Notes: a model not told the origin generated them from the letters alone. 64,000 nt of DNA from Salinispira sp. (GCA_965226555.1 CBDDDG010000021.1:352001-416000), one strand, 5' to 3'; positions 19,159 through 61,171 are shown, numbered from the stretch's first letter. Numbers and translations are program-made.

Positions 19159-19223
19159 GGCTTTATCATTTGAGACAGTTGCTGTGCAACGATCTCAATT
19201 ATATGACCTTGGAGGTAACATAT

Positions 19224-20828
19224 ATGAAAATTAAAGGAATAACCTTTTGTATTTTCTGCGCAATATCCATTGCGTTGATTTCTGGATGCCCAACACCAGA
19301 ACCGGAACCCGGGCCAACTGCGCCGCCTGTTATGTCTGCTCCGACTCTCACAGCGGGAAACGGACAACTTACAGCCTCATGGATTGATCCGACTACATGG
19401 AATTGGGGAGATAACAAAGCGGTCAACGCTATTACCTCGTACAATCTGCGCTATCGGGAAGTCGGCAGCGAGAGCTGGACGGAGATTAACTCCGGTATAA
19501 CCGGCACAAGCCACACCATTACCGAACTGACAAACGGCGACACCTACCACGTGCAGGTGCGCGCCATCAACGCTCAGGGCACTGGCGGCTGGTCGGCATC
19601 TGCCACAGCAACACCTATTGCGCCGCCAACTGCGCCCCCTGTCGCGCCGGGCACAATGGCTGCTCCAACCCTTGAAGTGGGGAATGGACAGCTCATTGCG
19701 ACATGGACTGCGCCGGAAAATGATGGCGGCAGCCCCATTACCGGGTATGAACTGCAATATCGCACAGATGCTGGAGCATGGACGCGCATTAGCTCCGGCA
19801 TTGCCTGCGAAAACAGCGAGGGGCAGACAGAAGTCTGTCATTTTTCCTTCTCATCGTACTCTTCCTACACAATTCACAGCATTACGGCAGACGGCGCCAA
19901 CTACCAACTACAGGTACGCGCCGTCAACGCGCAGGGCAGTGGCGAATGGTCTGCAACAGCAATGTTGCTTTTTGCAACGCAGGTTCCTGCGGGCGAGGCA
20001 GCGGTCGCAATTTTTCCGGCTGATATTGATAACCCCATTGCCCCTGAAATTGTCACTGAGCTCAGCATTTCTTTGACCGCGGTGGGGGCGAGCAATATCA
20101 TCACGGTCGGTGATGGAGACATTACGTCGGTCACCTCCGTAGCGACGCCCAATGGAGTTACCCCGCCGACTGTTGATTCGAGCAGCGGACTTATTACGCT
20201 TACGGTTACCGCAGATACAACGGCAGGAACATATGTGATATATGACAACAATGCAACCGGAACCGATGGTCTCCTCTTTGCCGAATATTTCTTTGTTACT
20301 GAGAGTCCTCAAGATAAAACTCAACTGCAAACACGGGTAACTGAGGGTATAGATACTTGGGGCAATACTGGTAATTTCAACTACATCATTACCGCTACAG
20401 TAACGGATATGTCTAGCATTTTCAATAGTAAAACCTCATTCAATGGCGATATCTCCGGCTGGGATGTCAGCGCGGTAACGAATATGTTTCAGATGTTCAA
20501 TAACGCAAGCGCATTCAATGGCGATATCTCCGCTTGGGATGTCGGTTCGGTAACGATTACAACCCAGATGTTCAATAGCGCTGCTACATTCAATACCGAT
20601 ATCTCCGGCTGGGATGTCGGCTCTTTAACGACTATGCCCTTTATGTTCAATTCTGCAATCGCATTCAATGTCGATCTTGAGGAGTGGAAGGATCATTGGA
20701 CGCTTGATGGCGATGGAAAATATACCGGAACCATAGTAAGTATGTTTGATGGTTCCGGTGTGGTGTCGAATACGGACGGGTCGGATATGAGTAAGCCTAC
20801 AGGTGTTGGTACTCCATCATGGTATTAG
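19224..20828 (+). CDS. Fn3 (x2) + DUF285/BspA-like repeat (x4) surface lipoprotein
   Basis: SD GGAGG; lipobox ISGC-PTPEPEP; Fn3 Y.VQVRA.NA.G.G.WS; FNGDISxWDV repeats; ends PSWY. Confidence 0.88.
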   Translation: MKIKGITFCIFCAISIALISGCPTPEPEPGPTAPPVMSAPTLTAGNGQLTASWIDPTTWNWGDNKAVNAITSYNLRYREVGSESWTEINSGITGTSHTITELTNGDTYHVQVRAINAQGTGGWSASATATPIAPPTAPPVAPGTMAAPTLEVGNGQLIATWTAPENDGGSPITGYELQYRTDAGAWTRISSGIACENSEGQTEVCHFSFSSYSSYTIHSITADGANYQLQVRAVNAQGSGEWSATAMLLFATQVPAGEAAVAIFPADIDNPIAPEIVTELSISLTAVGASNIITVGDGDITSVTSVATPNGVTPPTVDSSSGLITLTVTADTTAGTYVIYDNNATGTDGLLFAEYFFVTESPQDKTQLQTRVTEGIDTWGNTGNFNYIITATVTDMSSIFNSKTSFNGDISGWDVSAVTNMFQMFNNASAFNGDISAWDVGSVTITTQMFNSAATFNTDISGWDVGSLTTMPFMFNSAIAFNVDLEEWKDHWTLDGDGKYTGTIVSMFDGSGVVSNTDGSDMSKPTGVGTPSWY

Positions 20829-20871: not shown

Positions 20872-20909
20872 AGGCAGGCACGGAAAAAAAATCCGTGCCT
20901 GCCTTTTTT
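20872..20909 (+). terminator. Intrinsic terminator shared by the three DUF285 genes
   Basis: aggcaggcacgga-loop-tccgtgcctgcct-ttttt. Confidence 0.85.
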
Positions 20910-21231
20910 CGATTGCTCGCCATGCGTCTGTTGCTGAGGCGGGGGGGCTGGTCGCGCTGCTCGCCATGCAGCCGGGCTGGTCGGAGGCTTGCGTCCGGCT
21001 CGCTTATGCGCGCTCAATTTTCGGGCTATATCTTACGCAGTCAGTCGGATATCGCCATAAACGCGCTATCCTGAGCGCACCCCTTCCCGTCCACTCACCC
21101 GCATTTCAGAGCCCTCCCCTCCCGTAGCCCCAAAAAAATCACACATTTTGCAAAATTCTTTCAAATTCTCTCAAAAAACATAGTCAAAAATGACTTTTTA
21201 CCCGTTATAGATATAGAGGGGAGAATTCACC

Positions 21232-21306
21232 ATGGGACCATGTCGCCATGGGAACTCCCCTATTCAGAAAGAAACGTTCAGAAAAACCTTCAGGAGGATT
21301 GTATGA
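21232..21306 (+). CDS. Putative 24-aa leader ORF coupled to the rpn start
   Basis: SD GAGGGGAG; MGPCRHGNSPIQKETFRKTFRRIV*; its TGA overlaps the ATG at 21303. Confidence 0.35.
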   Translation: MGPCRHGNSPIQKETFRKTFRRIV

Positions 21307-22379
21307 TCGATTTCAAAGAAAAACCCGCCCCCGTTCCCTACGACCAAGGATACCGCTCCCTGCTGTTCCAACCCGCAATAATGCTCCAATTTCTTCAACG
21401 CTTTGTCGGAGGCGCATGGACGAAAAAATTGCGAACCGAGGACATAACCATTGAAAACGGTACCTTTTTCATTGACCATGCGAAAACACGGATGGCCGAC
21501 ATTGTCTGCAAAATCAGAACTCGGGATCACACGGGAGATGTTGCTATCTATGTGCTCCTTGAGCATCAGTCTGGAGTGGACAAAGACATGCCCATCCGCA
21601 TGTCGGAATATACGAATCTGCTCTATAGAAACATTCACCGCTCCGGCGCAATTCCCGATGACTGCGAGTTGGTATTTCTGCCCATTGTGTTCTATAATGG
21701 CACGAGAAAATGGAAGGTGCCGGGGAATGTCAGGGAGCAGAATACGCGGGAATTCCCGCAGTATCTTGCTCCTTTTCCCTACGATCTTATTAGCGAGAGC
21801 GATTATTCTGCGGAGCAGCTGCAGCAGCGGGGAAGAATGTTTGCGGCTGTTATGTACCTTGATCTGTACTCGAAAAATCTGCTGAATACGGATTGGGACA
21901 TTCAGAAGGTGGAGAAAGCGATAGCAGAAATGCTGAATGAGGAATCGCTGGAGCTGATAAAGGAATTTATCGGCGTGGTAGATTCGATGTTCGGAATTGT
22001 TATAGATTTAGATACGTTAATGAATCAATTAGAAAGAACAAAAGAACCGAGAGGTAAGGAGGTAGCGAAAATGTTCAGAATGAATGCGGAAACATTCAGA
22101 GCTCACATTGCGGAGATGGGTCGGCAGGAAGGACTACAGACAGGACTGCGAACAGGTCGACAGGAAGGCCGTGAAGAAGGTCGGCAGGAAGGATTGCAGA
22201 CAGGTCGTGAAGAAGGACTTCAGACAGGACTGCAGAAAGGACTACAGACAGGTCGGCAAGAAGGCATTCGAGAAACGGCCCGCAGTATGTTTTTGGAAGG
22301 GTTGTCGACCGAGGCTGTTCAGAGAATTACCGGGCTGAGCGATGAGGAAATGCGCACATTGCGAAACGGGTCGCATTAA
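21303..22379 (+). CDS. Rpn/YhgA-like PD-(D/E)XK nuclease (Transposase_31 family), intact
   Basis: YDQGYRSLLF, RMADIV, YVLLEHQS..DKDMPIRM..Y, PIVFYNG..KW; C-terminal G.QEG 4-aa repeats; SD AGGAGG. Confidence 0.9.
   Translation: MIDFKEKPAPVPYDQGYRSLLFQPAIMLQFLQRFVGGAWTKKLRTEDITIENGTFFIDHAKTRMADIVCKIRTRDHTGDVAIYVLLEHQSGVDKDMPIRMSEYTNLLYRNIHRSGAIPDDCELVFLPIVFYNGTRKWKVPGNVREQNTREFPQYLAPFPYDLISESDYSAEQLQQRGRMFAAVMYLDLYSKNLLNTDWDIQKVEKAIAEMLNEESLELIKEFIGVVDSMFGIVIDLDTLMNQLERTKEPRGKEVAKMFRMNAETFRAHIAEMGRQEGLQTGLRTGRQEGREEGRQEGLQTGREEGLQTGLQKGLQTGRQEGIRETARSMFLEGLSTEAVQRITGLSDEEMRTLRNGSH
22071..22379 (+). CDS. Putative internally initiated small Rpn protein (RpnS-type antitoxin)
   Basis: In-frame AAGGAGG-tagcgaaa-ATG just before the 4-aa repeats. 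Confidence 0.65.
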   Translation: MFRMNAETFRAHIAEMGRQEGLQTGLRTGRQEGREEGRQEGLQTGREEGLQTGLQKGLQTGRQEGIRETARSMFLEGLSTEAVQRITGLSDEEMRTLRNGSH

Positions 22380-34433: not shown

Positions 34434-34470
34434 AACCCATCATCCGGCAATGGCGATATTGGCGGATTAT

Positions 34471-34560
34471 CCCCGGGCGCATGGGCGAGCAGGCGCGGAG
34501 CGCCGACCAGCCACGGGCGCGCGCATGGCGAGCCGGATGCTCGGTCGAGCAGGCAGAGCT
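34471..34560. repeat. GC-rich repeat module cluster
   Basis: gggcgcatgggcgagcaggcgcggagcgccgaccagcc; matches 36765-36860. Confidence 0.8.
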
Positions 34561-34567: not shown

Positions 34568-34843
34568 TTAATGCGGTCCGTTCCGCACTGTCCGCATTTC
34601 CTCATCGCTCAGCCCGGTAACATCCTGAATGTCATGGGCTGAAAATCCTTTGGAAAACATACTGCGGGCCGTTTCTCGAATGCCTCTCGCCATTCCTTTT
34701 GCAAGACCTTTCTGCATTCCCTGCTCAAGACCTTCAACACGACCTTTCAGAATGCCTTTCTCCATTCCCTGCTCAAGACCCTCAATCCGGCCCTTCGCAA
34801 TACCTTCCCTGACGAAGGCGTTGGTAATATTATATGTCCGCAT
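34568..34843 (-). CDS. Intact RpnS-type small protein (MRTYNITNAF...)
   Basis: SD AGGAG-aaaacagt-ATG; ten xxxG repeats; 91 aa. Confidence 0.7.
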   Translation of the reverse strand: MRTYNITNAFVREGIAKGRIEGLEQGMEKGILKGRVEGLEQGMQKGLAKGMARGIRETARSMFSKGFSAHDIQDVTGLSDEEMRTVRNGPH

Positions 34844-35330
34844 ACTGTTTTCTCCTACTGAAACTTTTGCATTGGAAAATTGTGCAGAGCACAATTTCCA
34901 GTAGCAAAAGTTTCAAATTTGGCAGGCCTCGTTGCGCTTGGCATTCTCTCATTTTGTAGAAAGTTTTGCCTGCGGCAAAACTTTGTCTAGGATATAGTTT
35001 CCTGTCAATTTTCTCAAACTGTTCATACAGTTTTGGATCCAGATCTTTTATACCGAAAATTGTGCTCCGCACAATTTTCTAATCTGGATTCTCTCATCTC
35101 TATTCGTGATTCTCTCAAGATATAGAAAGTTTTGCCTGTGGCAAAACTTTGGTATAACCCAGCACACTCTCTGCCAGATCAGTAAAGTCTTGTGATGACA
35201 AACCGTTTAGGAGCTGCGCAATCTCTTTCAGCCCCTCAGCATTCATTTTATTGAAAATTGTGCGGAGCAAAATTTTCAGTAATGAACAGGGCTTTCCGAT
35301 CGGGGTCTGAGAGGAAGGGGGCGCTGAGGC
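34568..35330 (-). pseudogene. Rpn type-B copy 3: 5'-truncated, internal deletion, two element insertions
   Basis: Matches 38434-39471 in pieces (SAPFLSDPDRKALFI; MNAEGLKEIAQ...); inserts at 35052-35153 and 34857-34986. Confidence 0.85.
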
Positions 35331-35347
35331 AATGCGCGGCTGTGCTG

Positions 35348-35587
35348 TTACTTTTTACCGTTTTCCCTGCTATTTTCACTACCGTTTTTCCGGGCGTTTT
35401 TCTGAAATGCTCGAATTTCATCCTTGCTGAGCTTAGTGTACTTACGAATACGGTCTATCGACAGACCATCCATAAGCATATTGAGCGCATGATCACGCTG
35501 AGCCTGAGCTTGCCCTTGCTCAAGTCCTTGCTCAAGCCCCTGCTCAACACCTGCCCGCCATGGGTCATCTAAAAGATCTACCAACAT
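35348..35587 (-). CDS. RpnS-type small protein of the type-A gene (MLVDLLDDPW...)
   Basis: In-frame GAGGAGG-taaaacgt-ATG followed by EQG repeats. Confidence 0.6.
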   Translation of the reverse strand: MLVDLLDDPWRAGVEQGLEQGLEQGQAQAQRDHALNMLMDGLSIDRIRKYTKLSKDEIRAFQKNARKNGSENSRENGKK

Positions 35588-36568
35588 ACGTTTTACCTCC
35601 TCAGGATTGTCCTGAAATAATTTCTTTGTTTCATCCCTAGTTATCTTACCAGAAAATCTCTTGAGTATCCATCCACAGAAAATTGTGCTCTGCACAATTT
35701 TCCAATGAGGATTCTCTCATCTCTATTCTTGATTCTCTCAAGGTATAGAAAGTTTTGCCACAGGCAAAACTTTGTCATAAAATCGCTCTTTCTTTTCGGG
35801 ATTCTCATCCTGTATTATATCTTTGAGTATGGCGATTGTTTCTTCTGTGTACTCTTCTATTGTTCCAAGATTTTCACAGAAAATTGTGCTCTGCACAATT
35901 TTTCAATAAGGATTCTCTTATCTATATTCTTGATTCTCTCAAGATATAGAAAGTTTTGCTACTGGAAATTGTGCTTGCACAATTTTCCAAGGCAAAACTT
36001 TGGTGATGTACATTATTGCCGAAATAACCCCTCCGACAGCCTTCAGTTCCTTGTTGCTGAAATTACTAATGTTGATCTGATAATAGGGAGATATCCGATT
36101 TCCTGAGTGAAAATATGATTGAAAATCGAGCGTGCGCGGATTCGAATTCGTCATTGACGCGCTGCGCCTAGTGTATATCACAAGGGTGATTATCAGGTAG
36201 TCGGTTTTCTCATCCCCCGATGAGGAAAGGTCTTCGGATAGGTGATGGGCGTATGTATATATTCTCCCCGGCATGTCGCTATCCACTGTCGACTGAAACT
36301 CAATGATGAAATACACATCAAGTGGTTTCAATTTCAGCATGTTATCGTAAAAATTGCATGTGGTTTTGTAAATGATATCGGAGACTGAACGTTTGGGGTC
36401 ATCTTTGGGGATATGCTCTGAGTCAATACGCTCTATACTCCCGGGAACAATGCTCCGCGCGAGGCCTTTGTTGAAGTAGGAGTATATGAAATCCTGGAAT
36501 ATCTGAGCATTCCTGAAAGCATATTTCCAACTTTTGTCGTGTACCATTCCTATATATTTTCCGCTCAT
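35348..36568 (-). pseudogene. Rpn type-A gene interrupted by two element insertions
   Basis: HDKSWKYAF, SDIIY, YFIIEFQST.D.DMP.R; removing 35876-36004 and 35675-35776 gives a continuous frame ...AIMYI|ENLGTIEE...KERFY|GWILKRF... Confidence 0.85.
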
Positions 36569-36760
36569 ACCATATAGACGGGTAAAATATGAATGGTGTA
36601 TGACAAAATGAGAAAGTTTTTCAAAAAGTTTTATTATTTTGAGATATTACAAAGTTTTGTTACTGAAAATTGTGCTCTGCACAATTTTCAAATGAGGATT
36701 CCCTCAAGGTATAGAAACTTTCTACAAAATGCGAGAATGCTAAGCACAAAGAAAACATTC
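36569..36760 (-). repeat. Conserved ~190-bp rpn leader 1 (copies at 38189-38380, 39703-39895 and 59566-59778 on +)
   Basis: Near-identical blocks ending ...cattcatattttacccgtctatat(g/a)gtATG. Confidence 0.9.
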
Positions 36761-36871
36761 CTGACGGACGCATGGCGAGCCGGATGCTTGGGCGAGCAGG
36801 CGCGGAGCGCCGACCAGCCCCGGGCGCATGGGCGAGCCGGATGCTTGGTCGAGCAGGCAGAGCTGTTCCAA

Positions 36872-37147
36872 TTAATGCGATCCGTTCCGCACTGTCCGCA
36901 TTTCCTCATCGCTCAGCCCGGTAACATCCTGAATGTCATGGGCTGAAAATCCTTTGGAAAACATACTGCGGGCCGTTTCTCGAATGCCTCTCGCCATTCC
37001 TTTTGCAAGACCTTTCTGCATTCCCTGCTCAAGACCTTCAACACGACCTTTCAGAATGCCTTTCTCCATTCCCTGCTCAAGACCCTCAATCCGGCCCTTC
37101 GCAATGCCTTCCCTGACGAAGGCGTTGGTAATATTATATGTCCGCAT
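36872..37147 (-). CDS. Intact RpnS-type small protein
   Basis: SD AGGAGGAG-aaaacagt-ATG; near-identical to 34568-34843. Confidence 0.7.
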   Translation of the reverse strand: MRTYNITNAFVREGIAKGRIEGLEQGMEKGILKGRVEGLEQGMQKGLAKGMARGIRETARSMFSKGFSAHDIQDVTGLSDEEMRTVRNGSH

Positions 37148-38033
37148 ACTGTTTTCTCCTCCTGAAACTTTTGCATTGGAAAATTGTGCAGAGCACAATT
37201 TCCAGTAGCAAAAGTTTCAAATTTGGCATGCATCGTTGCGCTTGGCATTCTCCCATTTTGTAGAAAGTTTTGCCTGTGGCAAAACTTTGTCTAGGATATA
37301 GTTTCCTGTTAATTTTCTCAAACTGTTCATACAGTTTTGGATCCAGATCTTTTAGATAACCCAGCACGCTCTCTGCCAGATCAGTAAAGTCTTGTGAAGA
37401 CAAACCGTTCAGGAGCTGCGCAATCTCTTTCAGCCCCTCAATATTCATTTCATTATCTCGCATTATATACCACAATGCAGTCGATGTATATCGTTTTCCA
37501 TCGAAACGCCATGCCAACTGCTCCTTTTTCATTCTACAAAGATCACGCACAATGTACGACACTTTTACCCTGACATCTACCGTGCCTTCAGTCATAGATT
37601 CGGAAGCAGCATTTCCATGTGAACTGTAAAATGTGAGTGGGAGGTTCCATTCCTTTTTTCCATGGTAAAGCAGTAATATATAGATAGCATCCTTTTCATT
37701 GTACACATTGCTGTTTCTGAGGGCATATTGATAGTCATCGATCTGTGTGAGAACGTGTTTGTGCAGGTAGCTTTTGTGTTCAATAATAAAAAAGGCCTTC
37801 CGGTCGGGGTCTGACAGGAAGGGTGCGCTGACAACGAGAGCGCAGTGAAGGTTCTTTTTTCCTGCAATGTAGCTGGGGGTTTCAATGCGGATTTTGTCCA
37901 TGTCCAGCTTGGCAAGCGTTGTATCCTCACAGAACAGGCGCAGCAGGTCGGGAATCATACGGGGGGTTCTGTAGTAGGCGATCTTGAAGGCTAGGTCGTG
38001 GATATGGTATTTGCTGTGGGATGATTTTTTCAT
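36872..38033 (-). pseudogene. Rpn type-B copy 2: catalytic Asp to Ala plus a 130-bp insertion before RpnS
   Basis: NLHCALVV versus NLHCDLVV in the paralogues; insert at 37161-37290. Confidence 0.85.
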
Positions 38034-38433
38034 AAACATTCCTCCTACATCTATAACGGGTAAAAAGTCATTTTTGACTATGTATTTGGAAAGAATTTGA
38101 AAAGAAATTGAAAGAATGTTGTGTTTTTTTTCGGGGAGTCGGGAATGGGGGGCTGGTATGCTCTGTGTCGATATAATCTTTGCTCATACTATATAGACGG
38201 GTAAAATATGAATGGTGTATGACAAAATGAGAAAGTTTTTCAAAAAGTTTTATTATTTTGAGATATTACAAAGTTTTGTTACTGAAAATTGTGCTCTGCA
38301 CAATTTTCAAATGAGGATTCCCTCAAGGTATAGAAACTTTCTACAAAATGCGAGAATGCTAAGCACAAAGAAAACATTCCTGACGGACGCATGGCGAGCC
38401 GGATGCTTGGTCGAGCAGGCAGAGCTGTTCCAA

Positions 38434-39471
38434 TTAATGCGATCCGTTCCGCACTGTCCGCATTTCCTCATCGCTCAGCCCGGTAACATCCTGAATGTCA
38501 TGGGCTGAAAATCCTTTGGAAAACATACTGCGGGCCGTTTCTCGAATGCCTCTCGCCATTCCTTTTGCAAGACCTTTCTGCATTCCCTGCTCAAGACCCT
38601 CAACCCGACCTTTCAGAATGCCTTTCTCCATTCCTTTCAGAATGCCCTTCTCCATTCCCTCAATTCGGCCCTTCGCAATGCCTTCCCTGACGAAGGCGTT
38701 GGTTATGTTATATGTCCGCATACTGTTTTCTCCTCTAGGGTACAGTTTCCTGTTAATTTTCTCAAACTGCTCATACAGTCCCAAGTCCTTCAGGTAACCC
38801 AGCACACTCTCTGCTAGATCAGTAAAGTCTTGTGAAGACAAACCGTTCAGGAGCTGCGCAATCTCTTTCAGCCCCTCAGCGTTCATTTCATTATCTCTCA
38901 TCATATACCACAACGCAGTCGATGTATATCGTTTTCCATCGAAACGCCATGCCAACTGCTTCTTTGTCATTCGCCTCAGATCGCGCACGATGTACGACAC
39001 TTTCACCTTGACATCTACCGTGCCTTCGGTAAGGGATTCGGAAGCAGCATTTCCATGAGAACTGTAAAATGTGAGTGGGAGGTTCCATTCCTTTTTTCCA
39101 TGGTAGAGCAGCAGTATATAGATAGCATCCCTTTCATTGTACACATTGCTGGTTCTGAGGGCATGCTGATAGTCATCAATCTGTGTGAGAGCATGTTTGT
39201 GCTGGTAGCTTTTATGTTCAATAATAAAAAGGGCCTTCCGGTCGGGGTCTGACAGGAAGGGAGCGCTGACAACGAGATCGCAGTGAAGGTTCTTTTTTCC
39301 CGCAATGTAGCTGGGATTTTCAATGCGGATTTTGTCCATGTCCAGCTTGGCAAGCGTCGTATCCGTACAGAACAGCCGCAGCAGGTCGGGAATCATACGG
39401 GGGGTTCTGTAGTAGGCGAGCTTGAAGGCTATGTCGTGGATATGGCCTGTGCTCTGGGATGATTTTTTCAT
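38434..39471 (-). CDS. Rpn type-B nuclease, intact (internal RpnS start at 38721)
   Basis: SD AGGAGG; HIHDIAFK, HCDLVV, FIIEHKS, LLLYHG..W, C-terminal xxxG repeats. Confidence 0.88.
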   Translation of the reverse strand: MKKSSQSTGHIHDIAFKLAYYRTPRMIPDLLRLFCTDTTLAKLDMDKIRIENPSYIAGKKNLHCDLVVSAPFLSDPDRKALFIIEHKSYQHKHALTQIDDYQHALRTSNVYNERDAIYILLLYHGKKEWNLPLTFYSSHGNAASESLTEGTVDVKVKVSYIVRDLRRMTKKQLAWRFDGKRYTSTALWYMMRDNEMNAEGLKEIAQLLNGLSSQDFTDLAESVLGYLKDLGLYEQFEKINRKLYPRGENSMRTYNITNAFVREGIAKGRIEGMEKGILKGMEKGILKGRVEGLEQGMQKGLAKGMARGIRETARSMFSKGFSAHDIQDVTGLSDEEMRTVRNGSH

Positions 39472-39576
39472 AAATATTCCTCCTACATCTATAACGGGTA
39501 AAAAGTCATTTTTAACTATGTATGTGGAAAGAATTTTGCAAAATGTGTGAATTTTTTTCGGGGGATGGGGGAATGC

Positions 39577-39702
39577 GGGGACAATGCTCCGCGCGAGGTC
39601 TTTATTGAAGTAGGAGTATGTGAAGTTTCTGAATATCTGAGCATTCCTGAAAGCATATTTCCAACTTTTGTCGTGTACCATTCCTATATATTTTCCGCTC
39701 AT
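39577..39702 (-). pseudogene. 5' stub of an Rpn type-A gene, in frame with the downstream leader and type-B gene
   Basis: MSGKYIGMVHDKSWKYAFRNAQIF...ARSIVP is nearly identical to the start at 36568. Confidence 0.8.
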
Positions 39703-39952
39703 ACCATATAGACGGGTAAAATATGAATGGTGTATGACAAAATGAGAAAGTTTTTCAAAAAGTTTTATTATTTTGAGATATTACAAAGTTTTGTTACTGA
39801 AAATTGTGCTCTGCACAATTTTCAAATGAGGATTCCCTCAAGGTATAGAAACTTTCTATAAAATGCGAGAATGCTAAGCACAAAGACAGCATTCCAAATG
39901 AGATATTGACCTGAGCCCCCGTCTCAGCAACAGGCGCATAGGCGAGCTATCG

Positions 39953-40016: not shown

Positions 40017-42314
40017 CTACTGGTTATACCATGTTGGAAAGGCTACATCGCCTGTTTGGCCGCGGCCCACCTTGGAATTCCGAAACATATTGGTGTCGGT
40101 TCCGGTAAATGTGCTGGGGGTATCCGTGTCCATATCCTTATCTTCGAGTGTCAAATGATCCTTCCACTCCTCAAGATCCTGATTGAATGCGCTTGCTCCA
40201 TCGAACATTTGAGTCATATTCGGTGCCGCAGCAATTGTCCAGCCGGAAATATCCTGATTGAAACTGGTTGCTCCATCGAACATATAGGACATATTCGTTA
40301 CCTTACTGACATCACCCCATCCCGAGATATCGCCATTGAAACTGGTTGCTTCAGCGAACATATAGGACATATTCGTTACCGAGCTGACATCCCAGCCAGA
40401 GATATTCTGATTGAATGCGCTTGCTTGAGCGAACATACCGAACATACTCGTTACCGAACTGACATCCCAGTTTGAGATATCTTGATCGAATGCGCTTACT
40501 TCCTGGAACATCTGAGTCATAAATGTTACCGAACTGACATTCCACTTCGAGATATCGCCATTGAATGCGTCTGCGTTATAGAACATACTGTTCATACTCG
40601 TTACCGAACTGACATCCCAGCGTGAGATGTCGCCATTGAATTCGCCTGGGTTATGGAAAATAGTGGTCATATCCGTTACTGCCGTGGTAACAATGTAGTT
40701 GAGATCGGCAGTATTGCCCCAATTACTTATTCCCGCAGCTACCGCTGCGTCCAGTTCATCGTTACCGCCATCGGTATTAGCAGCGCCCGCGCTGCCATCG
40801 CCATCAGCAGGTCTCACGGTAACATAAAACTTTTCGGTAAGCCGTGTATTCTCATCGGTTCCGTCTATGACAGATACATTGTATGTTCCTGCCGTTGTAC
40901 TTGCGGCAACCGTAATAACTCCGGTACGTGCGTCAACTGTCGGCAGGGTAACGGTAACCCCTGAGGGCGGGGAAGTAACCCCAGCCACAGTAACGCTTGG
41001 ATTCTCCGCATTGGCAGCGGCGTCATCAATGTCAGCCGAAAGAATGACGGATGTTGTTGATGTACCAAAGGGAACCTGTGCCGCAAGCGGCAGCAGTGTT
41101 CTCGTTGCGGAGGCAGACCAGCCGCCAGTGCCCAGCGCGTTAACGGCGCGCACCTGCACATTGTAGGAGGTGCCGTCGTTCGTCAGGCTCGGGATGGTGT
41201 AGCTCGTAGCACTGATAGGGTCGGTGACCAGCGTCCAGTTAGTTCCGCTGTCTGAACTATACTGCACATCATATGAGGTAATGGGGCTGCCGCCGTTGTT
41301 GGGCGCTGTCCATATCGCGGTGAGCTGGGTGTCTCCAACTGTGAGCCTGGGAGCATTCGGCATGGCAGGAGGCCCAATAGGGGTTGCGGTGCCGGTCGCT
41401 GGGTTGCCATTGCCCTCTGTATTGACAGCGTAGACCCGCGCCTCATACTCGGTGCCGTTTGTCAGGTTGGGGATGGTGAGGGTGTAGGTGTCGGCATCGG
41501 CGGTTGCAATGACAGGTTCCCACGCGCTTACTCCGACTACGCGATGTTGCAGTTCATAGCGAATAATGTCGCTGTCGCCAGTATCGGTCGGCGCAGCCCA
41601 TGTTGCGGTAATTGTCGTATCGTCCGCTGCGAGCGTGAACGCAGTCGGCGCCAAGGAAACGGTAATAGGGGTTTCTGTGGAAGATTCCGACCAGTTTCCC
41701 GCACCATGCGCATTGACCGCGCGCAGCCGCACATCGTAGGGGGTGCCGTTTGTCAGCCCGGTAATGGTGGAGCGTGAGGTCGGAGGAGTAATAATGGCGG
41801 TATCTGTATCGTCCGCTGGCCAGTCTGCGCTGCTTTGTTTGTGCTACACATGGTACGCGGTAATTTCGCTATCGCCGGTTTCTTCCGGCGGAGTCCAGTT
41901 AACCGTTAGTTGCTTATTCCCCGCTTCAAGGATTGGGGCAGCCATGGTGCCCGGCACGGCTGGTTCAGGTACATCTGAATTCTGCCGGGTATAGACAGTG
42001 CCATCCAATGTTAAGGTATCTCCATCAATGGTATACTCTACCGTTGCCCCATTACGGTTTTCCGCTCCTTCTCCTATACAATTACTGAACGTAATTGAGT
42101 TTCCGTTATCCGTGTAATCACAAATAACCTCCAAAAACACATCTATGTACGTTGTCGCGGTGAATTCTATGGTATGAAACTCATTATCCGCGGTCCACAC
42201 GCCTATTAGGGGAGATGTATCCATGGGCACTGGTTCCGGTTCCGTCATTGGTTCCGGTTCCGGCAGTGGACATCCGGCAAGTAATGCGATGAGAACCACG
42301 CTCATTATAATCAA
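40017..42314 (-). pseudogene. Fn3 (x3) + DUF285 (x7) lipoprotein with one in-frame amber stop
   Basis: ORFs 41844-42314 and 40017-41732 share a frame; TAG at 41844-41846 lies in YHV*HK, then Fn3 sequence continues ([19 protein letters not shown]); lipobox LAGC; ends PTWYNQ. Confidence 0.85.
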
Positions 42315-54004: not shown

Positions 54005-55919
54005 AACGCTTGAAATAGGTATATCCGTTCATACTTGAATTAAAGGTCTGCATAATTATCTTCCCTTCTGAAACAGTTATTTTACCCTTCGTAATTGCAG
54101 TTTCTGTTTTCCTGCGGAACTGCTCCCGCACATGATCCGGCTCATATTCCACATAGCTGAGAACATCGGAAATTGAATCGCCGTGAATCTCCCTGACAAT
54201 GTCGTAGGTTCCGTCATTCTCTACCCTGATGGAAACAACATTCGGATCACCAAAAAGATTATGCAGATCTCCCAGAGTTTCCTGATACGCGCCCACAAGA
54301 AAAATTCCAAGGTAATATTCTTCATTATCTTTAAGGCTATGGAGGGGAAGTGTCCGTTTAATATCATGAATATCGGGAAAATGATCAATTTTTCCATCGG
54401 AGTCGCAGGTAATGTCGCCTAAAATACCCTGCCGATCCGGTTTTGTATTATGCCGATGAAGAGGAATAACCGGAAAAATCTGGTCAATTGCCCATGCGTC
54501 CGGCAGGCTTTGAAACACACTGAAATTACAATAATAAATGTCATACAATGCCTCTCCGAGGTTCCTGAGCTCGCGGGGAATGCGCTTTACCTTTTTCAGA
54601 TTAATGATTATCTGATTTATAAGCGACAAAAATATATTCTCACCCAGAGCCCGATCTCTCAGGCTTATGCCTCCGCTTTTGAAGCGTTCGCGCAGCTCAT
54701 TACGATGGTGGACAGCATCATGATAACATTCCTGAATGTTTTTCAGGTCCATATATCCATGAATTTCCCACAGGTGAAAAATTGTGTCATCCACAGCTTC
54801 GGGCAGTTTCTCCGGCGGCTGGGGGTGCTGTACAGGAGTAACATCGAGAACATTGCAGACAAGAATGGTTGAGTATGCGACAGTTGCTCTTCCCGATTCA
54901 GTCATAATGCATGGGTGGGGAGTGTGTGAGTCGTTAAGAATATAGGTTAACGATTCAATAATGTCAGTACAATATTCTTGGAGAGTATAGTTTTTACTGT
55001 GGACAAAATTTGTCTGGCTTCCATCGTAATCAATTGCCAATCCGCCTCCAAGATCCAGAAAACCCATGGGAGCTCCTTCCTGAATAAGCCCGACATAAAA
55101 GCGCGCCGCTTCCTGTATGGCATTTCGTATGTCCCGAATGTTTGGAATCTGACTGCCCAGATGATAATGCAGCAATTGAAGTGAATCCAGAATGTTTTCA
55201 GCCCGGAGGATATCAATAATATCGACAATTTCTGAAGTTGTCAGTCCAAAAAGGCTGTTATCGCCCCCGCTGTCCTGCCAATGACCGCCGGCTTTGCTTG
55301 AAAGCTTGATGCGCAGACCGATAAGAGGCTGAATGCCAAGTTTTTTGCTTCTCTCAATGAGAATGGGTAACTCACTGGGGGCTTCAATAACAAAAAAACA
55401 ACGGTACCCCATCTTATGCGCGTAGAGCCCGAGATCAAAAAAATCAGCGTCTTTGTAACCATTACATACAATAACGTTTTCGGTGCTGTACAGCATGTGA
55501 AGGGCAACAATGAGCTCGGCCTTACTGCCGGCTTCAAGGCTATGATTATACCGAGCGCCGCATTTTGTTATTTCTTCAATGACTTGCTGCTGTTGGTTTA
55601 CCTTTATGGGGAAAAGCCCCTGATATTTTCCGGTATAATTGAATTCTTTCATTGCCGCATGAAAACTTTCATTAAGCAGGGTGATTTGCCCTTCAAGAAG
55701 ATTCTCCACTCGCAGAAGAGCAGGCATTTGAATGCCTCGGTCAAGCAAATTTTTTATAATATCAAGAAAACGTATTTCATTGGATTTTCCATCTGTGGAT
55801 ACCCTGAGAATGACTTCTCCAGAATTGTTAATATCAAAATATCCTCCGCCCCATTCCTTTATTCCATAAAGATTAGCGGAATCCTGCGGAGACCATTCAC
55901 TCAGTAAATCATTGCTCAT
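54003..55919 (-). CDS. speA: Biosynthetic arginine decarboxylase
   Basis: FPIKVNQ, EAGSKAEL, CNGYKD, HYHLGSQI, ESGRA, DITCDSDG, GAYQETLGDLHNLFG. Confidence 0.96.
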   Translation of the reverse strand: MSNDLLSEWSPQDSANLYGIKEWGGGYFDINNSGEVILRVSTDGKSNEIRFLDIIKNLLDRGIQMPALLRVENLLEGQITLLNESFHAAMKEFNYTGKYQGLFPIKVNQQQQVIEEITKCGARYNHSLEAGSKAELIVALHMLYSTENVIVCNGYKDADFFDLGLYAHKMGYRCFFVIEAPSELPILIERSKKLGIQPLIGLRIKLSSKAGGHWQDSGGDNSLFGLTTSEIVDIIDILRAENILDSLQLLHYHLGSQIPNIRDIRNAIQEAARFYVGLIQEGAPMGFLDLGGGLAIDYDGSQTNFVHSKNYTLQEYCTDIIESLTYILNDSHTPHPCIMTESGRATVAYSTILVCNVLDVTPVQHPQPPEKLPEAVDDTIFHLWEIHGYMDLKNIQECYHDAVHHRNELRERFKSGGISLRDRALGENIFLSLINQIIINLKKVKRIPRELRNLGEALYDIYYCNFSVFQSLPDAWAIDQIFPVIPLHRHNTKPDRQGILGDITCDSDGKIDHFPDIHDIKRTLPLHSLKDNEEYYLGIFLVGAYQETLGDLHNLFGDPNVVSIRVENDGTYDIVREIHGDSISDVLSYVEYEPDHVREQFRRKTETAITKGKITVSEGKIIMQTFNSSMNGYTYFKR

Positions 55920-57736
55920 ACGTCAGCTTCCGATAGCTTGAAACGTTGAGTTACTAACTGAACGAGATTCTTTGTCCTTGAGTCAATTTGATCATGGCTC
56001 CAGCCTGTAGCAACGGCCAAGTCCTTATTAAGCGTGAGTCCGTTTTTGTAGCCGACAGGAAGACCTTGTTTATCAGTATGATCCCTCTTATCCTCAAAGC
56101 TCCTATTACCAAGTTTACTATTGAAAGCGGAAATCGTCAGGTTGCCCAATTTGTGAACATGTGTCTCTTGTATTTCCTTCGCTCTTTTCTCATCGCCATC
56201 GGCGATCATGGTTATCCACGGCATTGGGATATTTTCTCCTTTCGGAAAAATATGTTCAATTGTCCATACGAATTTCTTATTTTCACCGCGCTGCCAAAGA
56301 TCAACCCAACTTTCTTTTGTCATGGACTCTTCGGCCAAAGCGCAGAGAATAAACCGGGTTACCCCAACATTTTCTTCATAAATCGGCCCCCTTAGCTTGC
56401 GTTGGAAGTAATCGTCCGTAACAGAGACAGCCAGTAATTCTTGCTTAATTGATTCCGTAATCGCATGTGCGCGCAACCCACTGATCTTGTTAATTACTGT
56501 TATAAACAGTCGGGGAAGATCTCGGGTTGAAGGGGTATCGGTCAAATTACGATAAACGAAGAATCGGACAAGTAATTTGACTATTGATGATAGGTGAGAA
56601 TTCTCAAGTTTGAGCTCATTCTTTCGTACGAGTAAATACAAAATGAGCAAATATGATGGGGTGCCCTGAATCCGTTCTAAATCCTTTAGCGGTTTCTTAA
56701 GATCATTCTCAAGAGCATTGAGGGCTTCATCCTCGTTTCGTGAAAGTATCAGCGAATACAGTCGTCCAGCGTCACTGAGCTTCTGTAAACAATCTTTCGC
56801 GTTATGGTCAATGAGCTTTTCATAAATTTGAATTAGGTTGGATCGGATGGCGACCTGTACCTGAGGGATCGCTTTAAGTTGATTCCTGAAGGCGTTGTAG
56901 TACTGACGAAAAAAACGTTCCTGAATAGTATAGTCATCGCCTAGGTAATTCAGGAGACGCTTCCAATTCTCAAAATTGTGATCTACCGCGCCTTCGCCTG
57001 ATGGTTCAATGGATTCCAGACGGGCCAATAGCTTGTTCTTGATCAGATCAACGGCGGTAAGCGGAATCCCCCGATCGTTTAAAGTCTCGAACAGGATATA
57101 CGCGTCAGCGTGGCTTGCCACCTCAATTTTGACCATGCACGCGTGGCTGACTTTTTCTATGAATGCCATGATCGTATGTAGCAGATTGTTTTCTTCATTG
57201 CTTATTCGATTAATGCGATCTTGAAAATATCGATAAGCGCGAAATATCTGACGGTTACCAGCGTGATGGGGGTAGGGCGCATCCCCAATAATTCCGGCAT
57301 CGGCGAGAACAGCGCGGTAATCATCGAAATTATTACCCTGATTCTGCGGAAGCAGACGAATTTTATCGCCCCCTTTCTTGAGAACCAACTTGTGCTTCAA
57401 ATTGATCAGCTCAGCGCCCTGTTCATCATCCAAATCATTTTTATAAGATTTTAGAATCTGGTAAACAGCGGACAGAAGTAGTGAGAGCGTTGTTAGGCGT
57501 TGTTGTCCGTCAACGAGCTCAAGCTTCTGAATAGAAAGCGCATCGGTCGATTGATTGATGCAGATAATTGAGCCAAGGAAATAGCCCTGCTCGTTTTCAA
57601 GCACATCATCAAAAAGTTTTTTCCACTGATTTTTGCCCCATGAGTATGCACGCTGGTAGCGAGGAATGGCGTAAACCACTCCCGCTTCAATATCGAAAAG
57701 CTGTGAGACTGGGTAGTTATTTACAGATTGAATCAT
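55916..57736 (-). CDS. DUF262 + DUF1524 (GmrSD/SspE-like) NTPase-HNH nuclease
   Basis: IPRYQRAYSW, DGQQRLTT, FETLNDRG, IEHIFP...LGNLT...N. Confidence 0.9.
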   Translation of the reverse strand: MIQSVNNYPVSQLFDIEAGVVYAIPRYQRAYSWGKNQWKKLFDDVLENEQGYFLGSIICINQSTDALSIQKLELVDGQQRLTTLSLLLSAVYQILKSYKNDLDDEQGAELINLKHKLVLKKGGDKIRLLPQNQGNNFDDYRAVLADAGIIGDAPYPHHAGNRQIFRAYRYFQDRINRISNEENNLLHTIMAFIEKVSHACMVKIEVASHADAYILFETLNDRGIPLTAVDLIKNKLLARLESIEPSGEGAVDHNFENWKRLLNYLGDDYTIQERFFRQYYNAFRNQLKAIPQVQVAIRSNLIQIYEKLIDHNAKDCLQKLSDAGRLYSLILSRNEDEALNALENDLKKPLKDLERIQGTPSYLLILYLLVRKNELKLENSHLSSIVKLLVRFFVYRNLTDTPSTRDLPRLFITVINKISGLRAHAITESIKQELLAVSVTDDYFQRKLRGPIYEENVGVTRFILCALAEESMTKESWVDLWQRGENKKFVWTIEHIFPKGENIPMPWITMIADGDEKRAKEIQETHVHKLGNLTISAFNSKLGNRSFEDKRDHTDKQGLPVGYKNGLTLNKDLAVATGWSHDQIDSRTKNLVQLVTQRFKLSEADV

Positions 57737-57953: not shown

Positions 57954-59363
57954 ATGAGAACTAGGTCATACTCAGGAACAATCCTTTGCATTTTCTGCTC
58001 AATACTTATTGCATTGATTGCCGGATGTCCAATGCCGGAACCAGAACCAATGCCGGAACCAGAACTAACCGCGCCGGGTACCATGGCTGCTCCAACCCTC
58101 ACAGCAGGGAACGGGCAAGTAACTGTTGAATGGGTTGCGCCGACCAGCGATGGCGGCAGCGCAATTACCGCGTATGAGCTGCAATATCGATCGGCCGGAA
58201 GTGAATCTGATTGGAAGTTAATCTATTCCGGTATTGATGGCACAGATCACACCATCACCCATGTGGCAAATAACATCAGCTACGAGGTACAGGTTCGTGC
58301 TGTCAACGCTGTTGGCAATGGTCCATGGTCCGCAACAGCAACATCAATGTTGCCGTTTGCAACACAGGTTCCCGCGGGGACAGCGGCGCTCGTACTTCTT
58401 TCGGCTGATATTGATACCCGTATTGCCGCTGAGAACCTCGCCGTTTTTTTGACCACGGTAGAGCCGGGCACATACGCGGTCGATGAATCAGATGTCATTA
58501 CGATAACCCCCGCAACTGTGCCCGAAAATGTCACCCCGCCGACAGTTGATGTAAGTACCGGAATTATTACCGTTACAGCAAATACAACGGCAGGAACATA
58601 TCTGGTATACGGCAGTAAAACAGGAACCGGAGACATACTGTTTGCCGAATATTTCTATGTTACTGTGAGTCCTCAAGATAGTGATGGTAATAATGATGGC
58701 GGTAATGGTGAACTGAAAATGGCGGTAACTGAAGGGATATCTGTTTTGGGCACAGAAGTCATGGTTGATACTGACACCACCTATACCTATGCCGATCTCA
58801 ACTACATTGTTACCACGGCAATAAGGGATATGTCTGAGGTGTTCAAGAATAACAGCACATTCAATGGCGATATCTCACTCTGGGATGTCAGTTCAGTAAC
58901 GGATATAAACAATATGTTCAATAGCGCAGTCGCATTCAATGGTGATATCTCGGGCTGGGATGTCAGTAAAGTAACAAATATGAGTGGATTGCTCGGTTCC
59001 GCCAACGCATTCAATGGCGATATCTCTGTTTGGGATACTGGCACGGTAACGAATATGAGCAATATGTTCACTTTTGCAATCTCATTCAATGGCGATATCT
59101 CACTCTGGGATGTCAGTTCGGTAATGAATATGAGCTCCATGTTCGGTTTAGCAAGCTCATTCAATGGCGATATCTCCGGTTGGGATGTCAGCTCGGTAGC
59201 GAATATGGAATATATGTTTAATATAGCAAGCGCATTCAATCAAGATCTTGAGGAGTGGAAGGATCATTGGACGCTTGATGGTAATGGCAAATATACCGGA
59301 TTTAAAACAGGTATGTTTGTGAGTTCCGGCGTGACAGGTAGTCTGGTGCCGTCATGGTATTAG
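57954..59363 (+). CDS. Fn3 (x1) + DUF285 (x6) surface lipoprotein
   Basis: SD AGGAGG; lipobox IAGC-PMPEPEP; FNGDIS.WDV repeats; ends PSWY. Confidence 0.88.
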   Translation: MRTRSYSGTILCIFCSILIALIAGCPMPEPEPMPEPELTAPGTMAAPTLTAGNGQVTVEWVAPTSDGGSAITAYELQYRSAGSESDWKLIYSGIDGTDHTITHVANNISYEVQVRAVNAVGNGPWSATATSMLPFATQVPAGTAALVLLSADIDTRIAAENLAVFLTTVEPGTYAVDESDVITITPATVPENVTPPTVDVSTGIITVTANTTAGTYLVYGSKTGTGDILFAEYFYVTVSPQDSDGNNDGGNGELKMAVTEGISVLGTEVMVDTDTTYTYADLNYIVTTAIRDMSEVFKNNSTFNGDISLWDVSSVTDINNMFNSAVAFNGDISGWDVSKVTNMSGLLGSANAFNGDISVWDTGTVTNMSNMFTFAISFNGDISLWDVSSVMNMSSMFGLASSFNGDISGWDVSSVANMEYMFNIASAFNQDLEEWKDHWTLDGNGKYTGFKTGMFVSSGVTGSLVPSWY

Positions 59364-59413: not shown

Positions 59414-59489
59414 AGGCAGGCGCGGATTTTCCCCCGGATGCTTGGGCGAGCAGGCGTGCAACGCCGACCAGCCCGTGCCTGCCTTTTTT
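59414..59489 (+). terminator. Shared terminator with a GC module inserted in its loop
   Basis: aggcaggcgcgg...[ccggatgcttgggcgagcaggcgtgcaacgccgaccagc]...ccgtgcctgcc-tttttt. Confidence 0.75.
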
Positions 59490-59778: not shown

Positions 59779-59895
59779 ATGAGCAAAAAATATATTGGTA
59801 TGGTACACGCTGAAAATATGTTTTCGGGAATGTTCAGATATTCCGGCACTTCATATATTCATACTTCAACAAAGGCCTCGCGGGGAGCATGGAGA
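59779..59895 (+). pseudogene. Degenerate 5' stub of Rpn type A
   Basis: MSKKYIGMVH; DNA resembles the start at 36568 (tacttcaacaaaggcctcgcg) but is frameshifted. Confidence 0.65.
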
Positions 59896-60024: not shown

Positions 60025-61153
60025 ATGAAAAAATCATCCCACAGCACAGGACACATCCACGACATAGCCTTCAAGATCGCCTACTACAGAACCCCCCGTA
60101 TGATTCCCGACCTGCTGCGGTTGTTCTGTGAGGATACAACGCTTACCAAGCTGGACATGGACAAAATCCGCATTGAAAACCCCAGTTACATTGCGGGAAA
60201 AAAGAACCTTCACTGCGATCTCGTTGTCAGCGCCCCCTTTCTGTCAGACCCCGACCGGAAAGCTCTATTCATTATTGAGCATAAAAGCTACCAGCACAAA
60301 CATGCTCACACACAGATTGATGACTATCAGCATGCCCTCAGAAACAGCAATGTGTACAATGAAAATGATGCTATCTATATACTTCTGTTTTACCATGGAA
60401 AAAAGGAATGGAACCTCCAGCGCGAATTTTACAGTTCGCATGGAAATGCTGCTTCCGAATCCCTTACCGAAGGCACGGTAGATGTCAGGGTGAAAGTGTC
60501 GTACATTGTGCGCGATCTTTGTAGAATGACAAAGAAACAGTTGGCATGGCGTTTCGATGGAAAACGATATACATCGACTGCGTTGTGGTATATAATGCGA
60601 GATAATAACAAAGTTTTTCCTTTAGGAAAAACTTTCTATACCGTGAGAGAATCAAGAGTATAGATGAGAGAATCCTCATTTGAAAATTGTGCAGAGCACA
60701 ATTTTCAGTGAAATGGACACTGAGGGGCTGAAAGAGATTGCGCAGCTCCTGAACGGTCTGTCATCACAAGACTTTACTGATCTGGCAGAGAGTGTGCTAG
60801 GCTATCTGAAAGATTTGGGACTGTATGAGCAGTTTGAGAAAATTGACAGGGAACTGTTCCCTGGAGGAGAAAACAGTATGCGGACATATAATATTACAAA
60901 CGCCTTCGTCAGAGAAGGAATGGAGAAAGGTATGGAAAAGGGTATTCTGAAAGGAATGGAGAGGGGCATTCTGAAAGGACGGGTTGAGGGAATGGAGAAA
61001 GGTATTCTGAAAGGTCGCGCTGAGGGGCATATTGAGGAGCGGAGAAAAAACGCCCGCAGTATGTTTTCGGAAGGCTTGTCAACAGAGGCTGTTCAGAGGA
61101 TTACCGGGCTGAGCGATGAGGAAATGCGGACAGTGCGGAACGGATCGCATTAA
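60025..61153 (+). pseudogene. Rpn type-B copy 4 interrupted by a 103-bp insertion
   Basis: Removing 60607-60709 restores RDN|EMD as in the intact paralogue. Confidence 0.88.
60878..61153 (+). CDS. Intact RpnS-type small protein
   Basis: GGAGGAG-aaaacagt-ATG; xxxG repeats. Confidence 0.7.
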   Translation: MRTYNITNAFVREGMEKGMEKGILKGMERGILKGRVEGMEKGILKGRAEGHIEERRKNARSMFSEGLSTEAVQRITGLSDEEMRTVRNGSH

Positions 61154-61171
61154 TTATTGCTGCTCTGCCTG

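What the first reader, a model, noticed from the sequence alone, without database searches (positions are those of the whole stretch)
34568..39702. Rpn array in which the nuclease halves are destroyed but the intragenic RpnS-type antitoxins stay intact
Seen: all six rpn genes in the window have a strong in-frame SD+ATG just before the C-terminal 4-aa repeats (22071, 34843, 35587, 37147, 38721, 60878). All lesions lie upstream of those starts: six element insertions, an internal deletion, a 5' truncation and a catalytic D-to-A change. No small ORF is damaged. Only 21303 and 39471 encode intact nucleases. Established: enterobacterial Rpn genes make a separately translated small C-terminal protein with variable 4-aa repeats that blocks the toxic full-length protein. 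Inference: selection keeps a bank of orphan antitoxins (an immunity array) in a spirochaete-like genome.
Basis: partly seen in the sequence, partly recalled or inferred. Interest (0 to 1): 0.82.

Follow-up and report, generated by a model that had tools for sequence, protein, structure and literature searches.

The report
Rpn gene swarm keeps its antitoxins
This bacterium carries about 170 copies of a predicted toxin gene that holds a predicted antidote gene inside it, and in most broken copies the toxin half is wrecked while the antidote half stays open, likely because damage that spares the antidote survives better and the copies keep swapping parts, rather than because the cell stockpiles spare antidotes.

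Summary
All six window rpn copies keep a strong Shine-Dalgarno plus ATG and an open C-terminal ORF that folds like E. coli RpnA-S; the lesions lie upstream. The window alone is chance-level (P about 0.14-0.2). The array is a sample of a genome-wide swarm: 74 full-length and 93 non-intact copies in 7 subfamilies (about 6.7% of the genome; 0-9 matches in 98 order relatives). 81 of the 93 keep SD and small ORF. A genome-private hairpin MITE (noted before by this scan, other pieces of this genome) hit 18 distinct sites, none inside a small ORF (P 0.01-0.07 after target weighting). An 'immunity bank' is not shown: 12 of 93 small ORFs are broken or lost their SD, small indels are about as dense in both halves, orphans match intact genes no better than shuffled labels, and copies recombine freely (152 distinct small proteins of 155; tails swapped between subfamilies). 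Antitoxin-only rpn remnants (E. coli rpnD, RpnSs) and toxin-first decay of toxin-antitoxin systems are published. Best reading: toxin-first decay plus paralogue recombination in an extreme rpn expansion; trans-acting orphans remain possible (about 0.25). No expression or toxicity was tested.

The parts
21303..22379 (+). intact rpn gene, subfamily W (358 aa)
   Evidence: PF04754 68 bits; TIGR01784 over cut-off; catalytic D/D/E/Q present
22071..22379 (+). internal small ORF (RpnS-like, 102 aa) of the W gene
   Evidence: SD -12.5 kcal/mol; ORF
34568..34843 (-). orphan small ORF, A head, 91 aa
   Evidence: (SD -7.3, partly formed at the MITE end)
34844..35327 (-). 5'-truncated, internally deleted nuclease half of an A-type copy; has lost the candidate internal promoter
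34855..34991 (.). hairpin MITE at gene position about 736, directly upstream of the SD
35049..35156 (.). hairpin MITE at gene position about 680
35248..35285 (.). hybrid MITE stub marking the internal deletion (likely recombination between MITEs at positions 248 and 581)
   Evidence: alignment compared with the insertions listed; mechanism inferred
35348..36568 (-). B-type rpn pseudogene with two MITE insertions (35673-35783, 35853-36005)
35348..35587 (-). orphan small ORF, B head, 79 aa
   Evidence: SD -12.9
36629..36768 (.). MITE in the repeated upstream unit (also 38248-38387, 39763-39903, 59561-59704)
36872..38033 (-). A-type rpn pseudogene: D65A at 37839-37841 and MITE at 37162-37295
36872..37147 (-). 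orphan small ORF, A head, 91 aa (one 4-aa repeat fewer than the intact neighbour)
37462..37490 (-). candidate internal sigma70-like promoter TATACA-17-TATAAT (consensus match only)
   Evidence: motif in 29 of 29 full-length A genes
38434..39471 (-). intact rpn gene, subfamily A (345 aa)
   Evidence: PF04754 40 bits; model with nuclease-type fold, long helix 255-318 and three-helix tail
38434..38721 (-). internal small ORF (RpnS-like, 95 aa) of the intact A gene
   Evidence: SD -8.9; residues 294-339 align to 7TH0 RpnA-S, Z 7.2, rmsd 1.3 over 46 residues
38900..38928 (-). candidate internal promoter TATACA-17-TATGAT (consensus match only)
39578..39702 (-). 5' stub of a B-type rpn gene without small ORF, part of the repeated upstream unit
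59779..59890 (+). 5' stub of a B-type rpn gene without small ORF
60025..61153 (+). A-type rpn pseudogene with MITE at 60605-60712
60878..61153 (+). orphan small ORF, A head, 91 aa
   Evidence: SD -10.0

Best explanation
The array is a local sample of a genome-wide swarm of about 170 rpn copies that recombine with each other and likely decay toxin-first: insertions in the nuclease half survive, whereas hits in the predicted internal antitoxin would be purged at the moment they arise. Shown: the copy census, the conserved internal start, the RpnS-like fold of the model, the absence of insertions in small ORFs, and mosaicism between copies. Inferred: that the small ORFs are translated and inhibit the long proteins as in E. 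coli; that the filter is addiction-like (long protein already made still needs its own small protein when the gene is hit); and that orphan small ORFs stay open afterwards mainly because the pseudogenes are young and their 3' modules are continually exchanged with intact copies, decaying slowly when they are not.
For: Census: 167 internal starts, 74 in full-length ORFs, 93 not; 81 of 93 keep SD and ORF. 0 of 462 MITE loci lie in a small ORF, 109 in nuclease halves; these reduce to 18 distinct sites, mostly with one MITE subtype per site, so each could have been a first hit on an intact gene; the IS insertions (7 rows, 6 loci) also lie upstream. Recombination: all 10 pairs of the 5 family-A MITE sites show four gametes; 6 tail types are shared across subfamilies; 152 distinct small proteins among 155; copies carrying the same MITE just before the SD have 2-3 different tails and lengths of 64-118 aa. 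Youth or refreshing: nuclease halves of broken A and W copies still show a synonymous excess in private substitutions (29 syn, 52 non-syn or stop; ratio 0.50; P=0.003 against site counts, not corrected for transition bias). Later decay is not half-specific: about 18 small indels in 54 kb of nuclease halves versus 8-9 in 21.7 kb of small ORFs (hand count). Precedent: toxin inactivation precedes antitoxin loss in Photorhabdus TA systems (185 toxin-only, 186 both, 8 antitoxin-only; PMC13617665, passages); E. coli rpnD is a pseudogene whose small protein is still made (PMC10400941 text and Fig. S2 legend).
Against: Five W copies whose first lesion is a MITE at 724-728 (and two with an IS at 658-700) would make a catalytically complete nuclease domain without its C-terminus and are tolerated, so a hit just inside the small ORF should not create a more toxic protein; the filter must act through loss of the small protein itself, and a transient-addiction effect needs an unstable or quickly diluted small protein, which is not shown for Rpn. 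The broken copies (93) outnumber the founding lesions (about 18 MITE sites plus IS and deletions), so orphans were amplified after breaking and still took no MITE. Indel counts are blurred by 1-base assembly differences. Private-substitution ratios in orphan small ORFs (0.39) equal those in intact genes (0.41), which fits refreshing but also ongoing selection (all contrasts non-significant).
Confidence: 0.5

Rival explanations
1. Orphan small ORFs are kept by selection because they act in trans: a pooled antitoxin buffer that restrains some of the 74 full-length nucleases or protects against addiction when a copy is deleted or reshuffled by recombination.
For: No insertion in any small ORF: P = 0.009-0.07 for 17-20 MITE sites after target weighting, 0.0004-0.025 for 24 MITE plus IS events. 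C-terminally truncated nucleases are tolerated, so the small protein itself seems to be what is spared. 4 of 18 MITE sites lie within 45 nt upstream of the internal ATG (post hoc P=0.019), are among the most copied and carry promoter-like matches facing the small ORF. Stand-alone B-type small ORFs sit behind A and W genes.
Against: In E. coli inhibition is cognate-specific and lost with one extra 4-aa repeat (PMC10400941). Only 1 of 81 orphans is identical to an intact gene's small protein; 24 of 81 share family, helix length and tail type, versus 26.5 +/- 3.6 in label shuffles; the three array orphans match none. 12 of 93 are broken or SD-less, 4 further tails have lost their start, and 14 non-B plus 56 B nuclease-half remnants of 100 nt or more have no small ORF. 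In 26 of 39 family-A orphans a hairpin MITE lies downstream of the candidate internal promoter position and 4 of 39 lack that promoter. No close relative was found in viral contigs, so no incoming cognate toxin is evident.
Confidence: 0.25
2. No selection on the small ORFs at all: the asymmetry comes from few founding insertions, the MITE's preference for AT-rich targets and amplification of young pseudogenes.
For: Small ORFs have half the TA density (25 versus 48 per kb) and higher GC; the target-weighted share is 0.14-0.21 versus 0.28 by length; about 18 founding events; equal indel density; 3 of 74 full-length genes lack the catalytic Asp.
Against: P stays at 0.01-0.07 for MITEs alone and falls further with IS events; the SD is kept in all 74 full-length genes of 7 divergent subfamilies; full-length genes show purifying selection (ratio 0.29).
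Confidence: 0.13
3. The broken copies serve as a cassette library: they are donors of 3' modules (repeat number, tail) for recombination into intact genes, diversifying the nucleases, and damaged modules are purged when copied into a live gene.
For: Four-gamete mosaicism, tail types shared across 7 subfamilies, 152 distinct small proteins; diverse modules behind one MITE insertion; patchwork flanks without fixed ends.
Against: Direction of exchange is not shown; the same mosaicism follows from unselected ectopic recombination, which is part of the best explanation.
Confidence: 0.12

Closest known systems
RpnL/RpnS gene-within-gene toxin-antitoxin systems of E. coli (Zhong et al. 2023, PMC10400941; structure 7TH0)
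   Same: PF04754 nuclease domain with D-D-E-K/Q residues, in-frame internal SD+ATG, variable 4-aa repeats in a long helix, three-helix tail that superposes on RpnA-S, candidate internal promoter, tandem arrays without fixed ends.
   Different: 74 full-length and 93 non-intact copies in one genome (the paper's high example is 26 copies); small ORFs of 58-142 aa; tails exchanged between subfamilies whose nuclease halves are only about 25-40% alike; expression, toxicity and phage defence untested here.
E. coli rpnD pseudogene (still makes RpnD-S) and stand-alone RpnSs genes such as ypaA (PMC10400941)
   Same: An antitoxin-type small ORF survives without a working nuclease half; stand-alone copies lie downstream of rpn genes.
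   Different: There they are single cases derived from the neighbouring gene; here there are 81, mostly made by MITE, IS and deletion lesions, and the stand-alone ones behind A and W genes are of another subfamily (B).
Two-step (toxin-first) erosion of chromosomal type II TA systems (Belot et al. 2026, PMC13617665)
   Same: Toxin half lost first, antitoxin later; antitoxin-only loss rare (one possible case here, C14:85663).
   Different: Toxin and antitoxin share DNA here, so a hit in the antitoxin also truncates the toxin; and the copies are near-identical paralogues that recombine.
Orphan immunity arrays of polymorphic toxin systems (CDI, T6SS, Rhs; recalled, no call)
   Same: Tandem arrays of antidote modules behind broken toxin genes; 3' module exchange.
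   Different: Rpn is not known to be delivered between cells; orphans here do not preferentially match any toxin in the genome.

Membership tests
Rpn (YhgA-like, PF04754) RpnL/RpnS toxin-antitoxin | PF04754 / TIGR01784 PD-(D/E)XK domain | tested here: met
   PF04754 above cut-off for all five window proteins tested; TIGR01784 above cut-off for the W gene only, below for the A gene; model matches PD-(D/E)XK nucleases weakly, Z 5-6
Rpn (YhgA-like, PF04754) RpnL/RpnS toxin-antitoxin | catalytic residues equivalent to RpnA D11, D63, E82, Q84 | tested here: met
   D13, D65, E85 conserved; present in 71 of 74 full-length genes, 3 lack the second Asp; two further rows flagged by the pattern show the residues on inspection; D63A abolishes RpnA activity (PMC5350276 passages)
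Rpn (YhgA-like, PF04754) RpnL/RpnS toxin-antitoxin | in-frame internal start with SD before the C-terminal repeats | tested here: met
   74 of 74 internal starts at or below -6 kcal/mol (median -12.5) versus 11% of 7574 control ATGs; sequence evidence only
Rpn (YhgA-like, PF04754) RpnL/RpnS toxin-antitoxin | 4-aa repeat variation in a long helix plus RpnS three-helix fold | tested here: met
   helix lengths vary in steps of 4 (49 of 49 W, 11 of 11 D); top hit of 48161 chains is 7TH0, Z 7.2, rmsd 1.3 over 46 residues (Z under 8 is middling by the tool's note, but the hit is the family's own structure)
Rpn (YhgA-like, PF04754) RpnL/RpnS toxin-antitoxin | small protein translated; long protein toxic and inhibited by it; phage defence | not testable with these tools
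   needs expression and toxicity assays
Orphan immunity array / antitoxin bank | orphans cognate to toxins present in or entering the cell | tested here: not met
   for resident genes, 24 of 81 type matches versus 26.5 +/- 3.6 shuffled, 1 of 81 identical, assuming E. coli-like repeat specificity; incoming toxins not found in viral contigs with one query
Orphan immunity array / antitoxin bank | purifying selection on orphans after loss of the toxin | tested here: inconclusive
   no insertions but equal indel density and non-significant substitution contrasts; recombination confounds both
Autonomous transposon (rpn as transposase) | fixed ends, terminal repeats or target duplications around dispersed copies | tested here: not met
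   downstream flanks of 59 full-length A and W genes and upstream flanks of 28 (output partly cut) are patchworks with variable ends, judged by eye

The most novel reading that the evidence does not exclude
A toxin-antitoxin family has become a recombining repertoire: about 170 rpn copies shuffle family head, repeat number and helix-turn-helix tail into some 150 different specificities, and nuclease-dead copies are kept, some re-promoted by a MITE landing just before the internal start, as a standing pool of antitoxins and donor cassettes that lets the cell tolerate and keep diversifying 70 live nucleases.
Probability: 0.25. Interest if true: 0.8.

Novelty: new variant of a known kind. Interest (0 to 1): 0.52.

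Why it matters
How rpn genes multiply and why their 4-aa repeats vary are open questions named by Zhong et al. and Koonin. This genome offers 74 full-length genes, 81 orphan small ORFs and natural head/repeat/tail recombinants in one background, so the specificity code (family head versus repeat number versus tail) and cross-inhibition in trans can be tested directly. It also shows dispersal to 119 clusters, 90 of them single copies, which tandem duplication alone does not explain. If orphans act in trans it would be a TA-type counterpart of orphan immunity arrays; if not, it is an unusually large, countable case of toxin-first decay.

Tried and rejected
Window-only statistics: not significant. 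Rpn as mover of the hairpin elements or of itself: no RAYT/Y1 transposase in the genome, no fixed ends around rpn copies; elements are spread over 247 unrelated intergenic sites; I could not confirm matching IS5 ends myself. The automatic count of 143 'frameshifts' in small ORFs and its binomial test were discarded: they are compensating gaps in the repeats of open ORFs; only loci whose ORF is really broken were counted by hand. One bin of element sites (B about 341, inside heavily deleted copies) was dropped from the 18-site list. Assembly check: only short-read contigs were available; no RNA holder listed; the repeats shatter the contigs, so neither the order of the array nor the C14:85663 frameshift could be confirmed or refuted. 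Close relatives in JGI metagenomes and IMG/VR: 2 distant loci and none. Orthologous site in relatives: no rpn match in 4 of 4 HEAT-gene loci, which hold only about 1.5 kb downstream. Sequence search of PDB found no Rpn; Foldseek gave no match at E 0.001. Complex prediction was not run, since a pass would follow from likeness to 7TH0. Literature searches returned nothing relevant.
Full report
Setting. The window is G000:C21:352001-416000 of a 2.98-Mb, 26-contig assembly (93.5% complete, 6.7% contamination). The nearest named homologues of the array protein are labelled Salinispira sp. MAG by NCBI, in keeping with a spirochaete.

Observation. Translation and alignment show four rpn-derived units in tandem on the minus strand, between a HEAT-repeat gene and a DUF285 gene: an intact 345-aa gene (39471-38434), a copy with D65A and a hairpin insertion 14 nt before the internal ATG (38033-36872), a divergent B-type copy with two insertions (36568-35348), and a 5'-truncated, deleted copy with two insertions and a hybrid stub (35327-34568). 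Two more copies lie at 21303 (intact) and 60025 (one insertion). All six internal starts have SD-like sequences and open ORFs. By length, six or five insertions all falling upstream has P 0.14 or 0.20.

Family identity. PF04754 is met. D13, D65 and E85 are conserved in a 34-sequence alignment, and the equivalent D63A kills RpnA. The model (mean pLDDT 78, residues 255-296 under 70) has a nuclease-type domain, a long helix and a three-helix tail whose best match among 48161 chains is E. coli RpnA-S (7TH0; Z 7.2, rmsd 1.3, 46 residues). The SD before the internal Met is kept in 74 of 74 full-length genes of seven subfamilies (A, W, B, C, D, E, F), although their nuclease halves are only about 25-40% alike. 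A TATACA-17-TATAAT-like motif about 180 nt upstream is present in 29 of 29 full-length A genes; this is a consensus match inside coding sequence, not evidence of function.

Genome-wide census. PF04754 gives 90 matches from 164 candidates here against 0-9 matches in 98 genomes of the order (most are fragmented assemblies that may collapse copies). I found 167 internal starts: 74 in full-length ORFs and 93 not, in 119 clusters (90 single), about 201 kb or 6.7% of the assembly. Of the 93, 83 have an ORF through the tail and 81 also keep an SD; 10 ORFs are broken by frameshift or deletion (one, C14:85663, behind an intact nuclease half) and 2 more lost the SD. Four further tails have lost their start. 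14 non-B and 56 B remnants of 100 nt or more have no small ORF. So 'no small ORF is damaged' is true of the window, not of the genome.

Insertions. The hairpin element is private to this genome (0 of 30 relatives). Of 462 loci of 40 nt or more, 109 lie in nuclease halves, 87 near rpn copies, 247 elsewhere between genes, 19 in long-ORF proxies (by eye mostly ORF extensions) and none in a small ORF. The rpn insertions reduce to 18 sites that recur in many copies, mostly with one subtype per site; one (C765) removes the SD. 66 of 364 bounded elements have exact 5-base duplications with a T..A-rich target, in line with earlier notes of this scan that call it an IS5-type MITE (the IS5 link not confirmed by me). 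Small ORFs are 28% of gene length but 14-21% of target weight; P(no hit) is 0.018-0.072 for 17 and 0.009-0.045 for 20 sites, and 0.0004-0.025 when IS events are added. The sparing is therefore probably real but rests on about two dozen events. Four sites lie 12-40 nt before the ATG (post hoc P 0.019).

Point changes. Private substitutions give non-synonymous/synonymous ratios of 0.29 (intact nuclease halves), 0.50 (broken), 0.41 (small ORFs of intact genes) and 0.39 (orphans); no contrast is significant (P 0.13-1.0; families A and W for nuclease halves and heads, three tail types for tails, repeats left out). Small indels, counted by hand, are about 18 in 54 kb versus 8-9 in 21.7 kb; short-read contigs show that the assembly has single-base differences, so some may be errors.

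Recombination. All 10 pairs of family-A MITE sites show four gametes; six tail types are spread over the subfamilies; 152 of 155 small proteins are distinct. Copies with the same MITE before the SD carry different tails and lengths. Flanks are patchworks of shared pieces with no fixed ends. Orphan and intact 3' modules are thus one exchanging pool.

Match of orphans to live genes. In E. coli inhibition is cognate and one extra repeat abolishes it. By family, helix length and tail, 24 of 81 orphans match an intact gene, versus 26.5 +/- 3.6 for shuffled labels; the array orphans 34843, 35587 and 37147 match none, 60878 matches five.

Mechanism. Most likely, insertions are filtered when they arise: a hit upstream of the SD removes the long protein and leaves the small one, a hit in the small ORF removes both and would leave previously made long protein unguarded (inferred). 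Afterwards the orphans are kept open by youth and exchange, and decay at ordinary rates. The main weakness: five W copies, and two with an IS, encode a complete catalytic domain cut just before the C-terminus and are tolerated, and in E. coli tail removal lowers but does not abolish activity; so what is spared is the small protein itself, which leaves room for a role in trans (0.25).

Literature. PMC10400941: main text parts 1-4 of 5, supplement file 1 part 4 of 4 plus search passages, figures not seen; it reports internal promoters and starts, stand-alone RpnSs genes, the rpnD pseudogene with its small protein detected, tandem arrays and up to 26 copies. PMC10400984: whole text. PMC5350276 and PMC13617665: passages. 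Searches showed no report of an rpn expansion of this size or of tail exchange between subfamilies; the library lacks most subscription papers. The comparison with CDI/T6SS orphan immunity arrays is recalled.

Verdict. Real feature, new variant of a known kind. The orphan-antitoxin state is known and largely explained by toxin-first decay; the scale and the modular shuffling are the unusual part. Interest 0.52.

Noticed in passing
genome-wide, e.g. G000:C1:43905-43929, C1:291000-291024, C1:190940-190964: Many short intergenic hairpin copies place TTGCAT exactly 17 nt before a TAGAAT/TAGTAT-like hexamer, as if forming or overlapping the -35 box of neighbouring promoters (seen by eye).
   Followed up: no
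rpn insertions genome-wide: Most MITE sites inside rpn genes share one orientation relative to the gene (only A248 and D239 are reversed among those seen), and A581 lies a few bases downstream of the candidate internal -10 box.
   Followed up: partly
window 19170-20828, 40017-41732, 57954-59363 and genome-wide: DUF285/fn3 surface-protein genes flank the rpn loci; 59 of 108 DUF285-like match clusters lie within 2.5 kb of an rpn internal start versus 27 expected at random (clusters may overcount genes).
   Followed up: partly
window 36568 and the stubs at 39702 and 59779: The B-type start codon has no SD and directly follows a TATATA/TATATG-like box, suggesting a leaderless message; only 2 full-length B genes remain while about 56 B 5' stubs persist in the upstream unit of other rpn genes.
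   Followed up: no
window 34455-34560, 36770-36870, 20900-21010, 59420-59560: A second, GC-rich patchwork repeat family follows most rpn stop codons and precedes many starts.
   Followed up: no
G000:C14:84895-85950 (L005): A W gene with intact nuclease half and a 1-base frameshift in the tail: either the rare antitoxin-first lesion or an assembly error; short-read contigs were inconclusive.
   Followed up: partly
window 12947-16975: The IF-2 ORF is 1342 aa, with Pfam IF-2 domains ending near residue 711 and long open frames overlapping on both strands, i.e. a long repetitive C-terminal extension.
   Followed up: no
window 55916-57736, 61101-62727: A GmrSD gene, a type I restriction specificity subunit and an IS3 remnant surround the 60025 copy, a small defence-like neighbourhood.
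   Followed up: no
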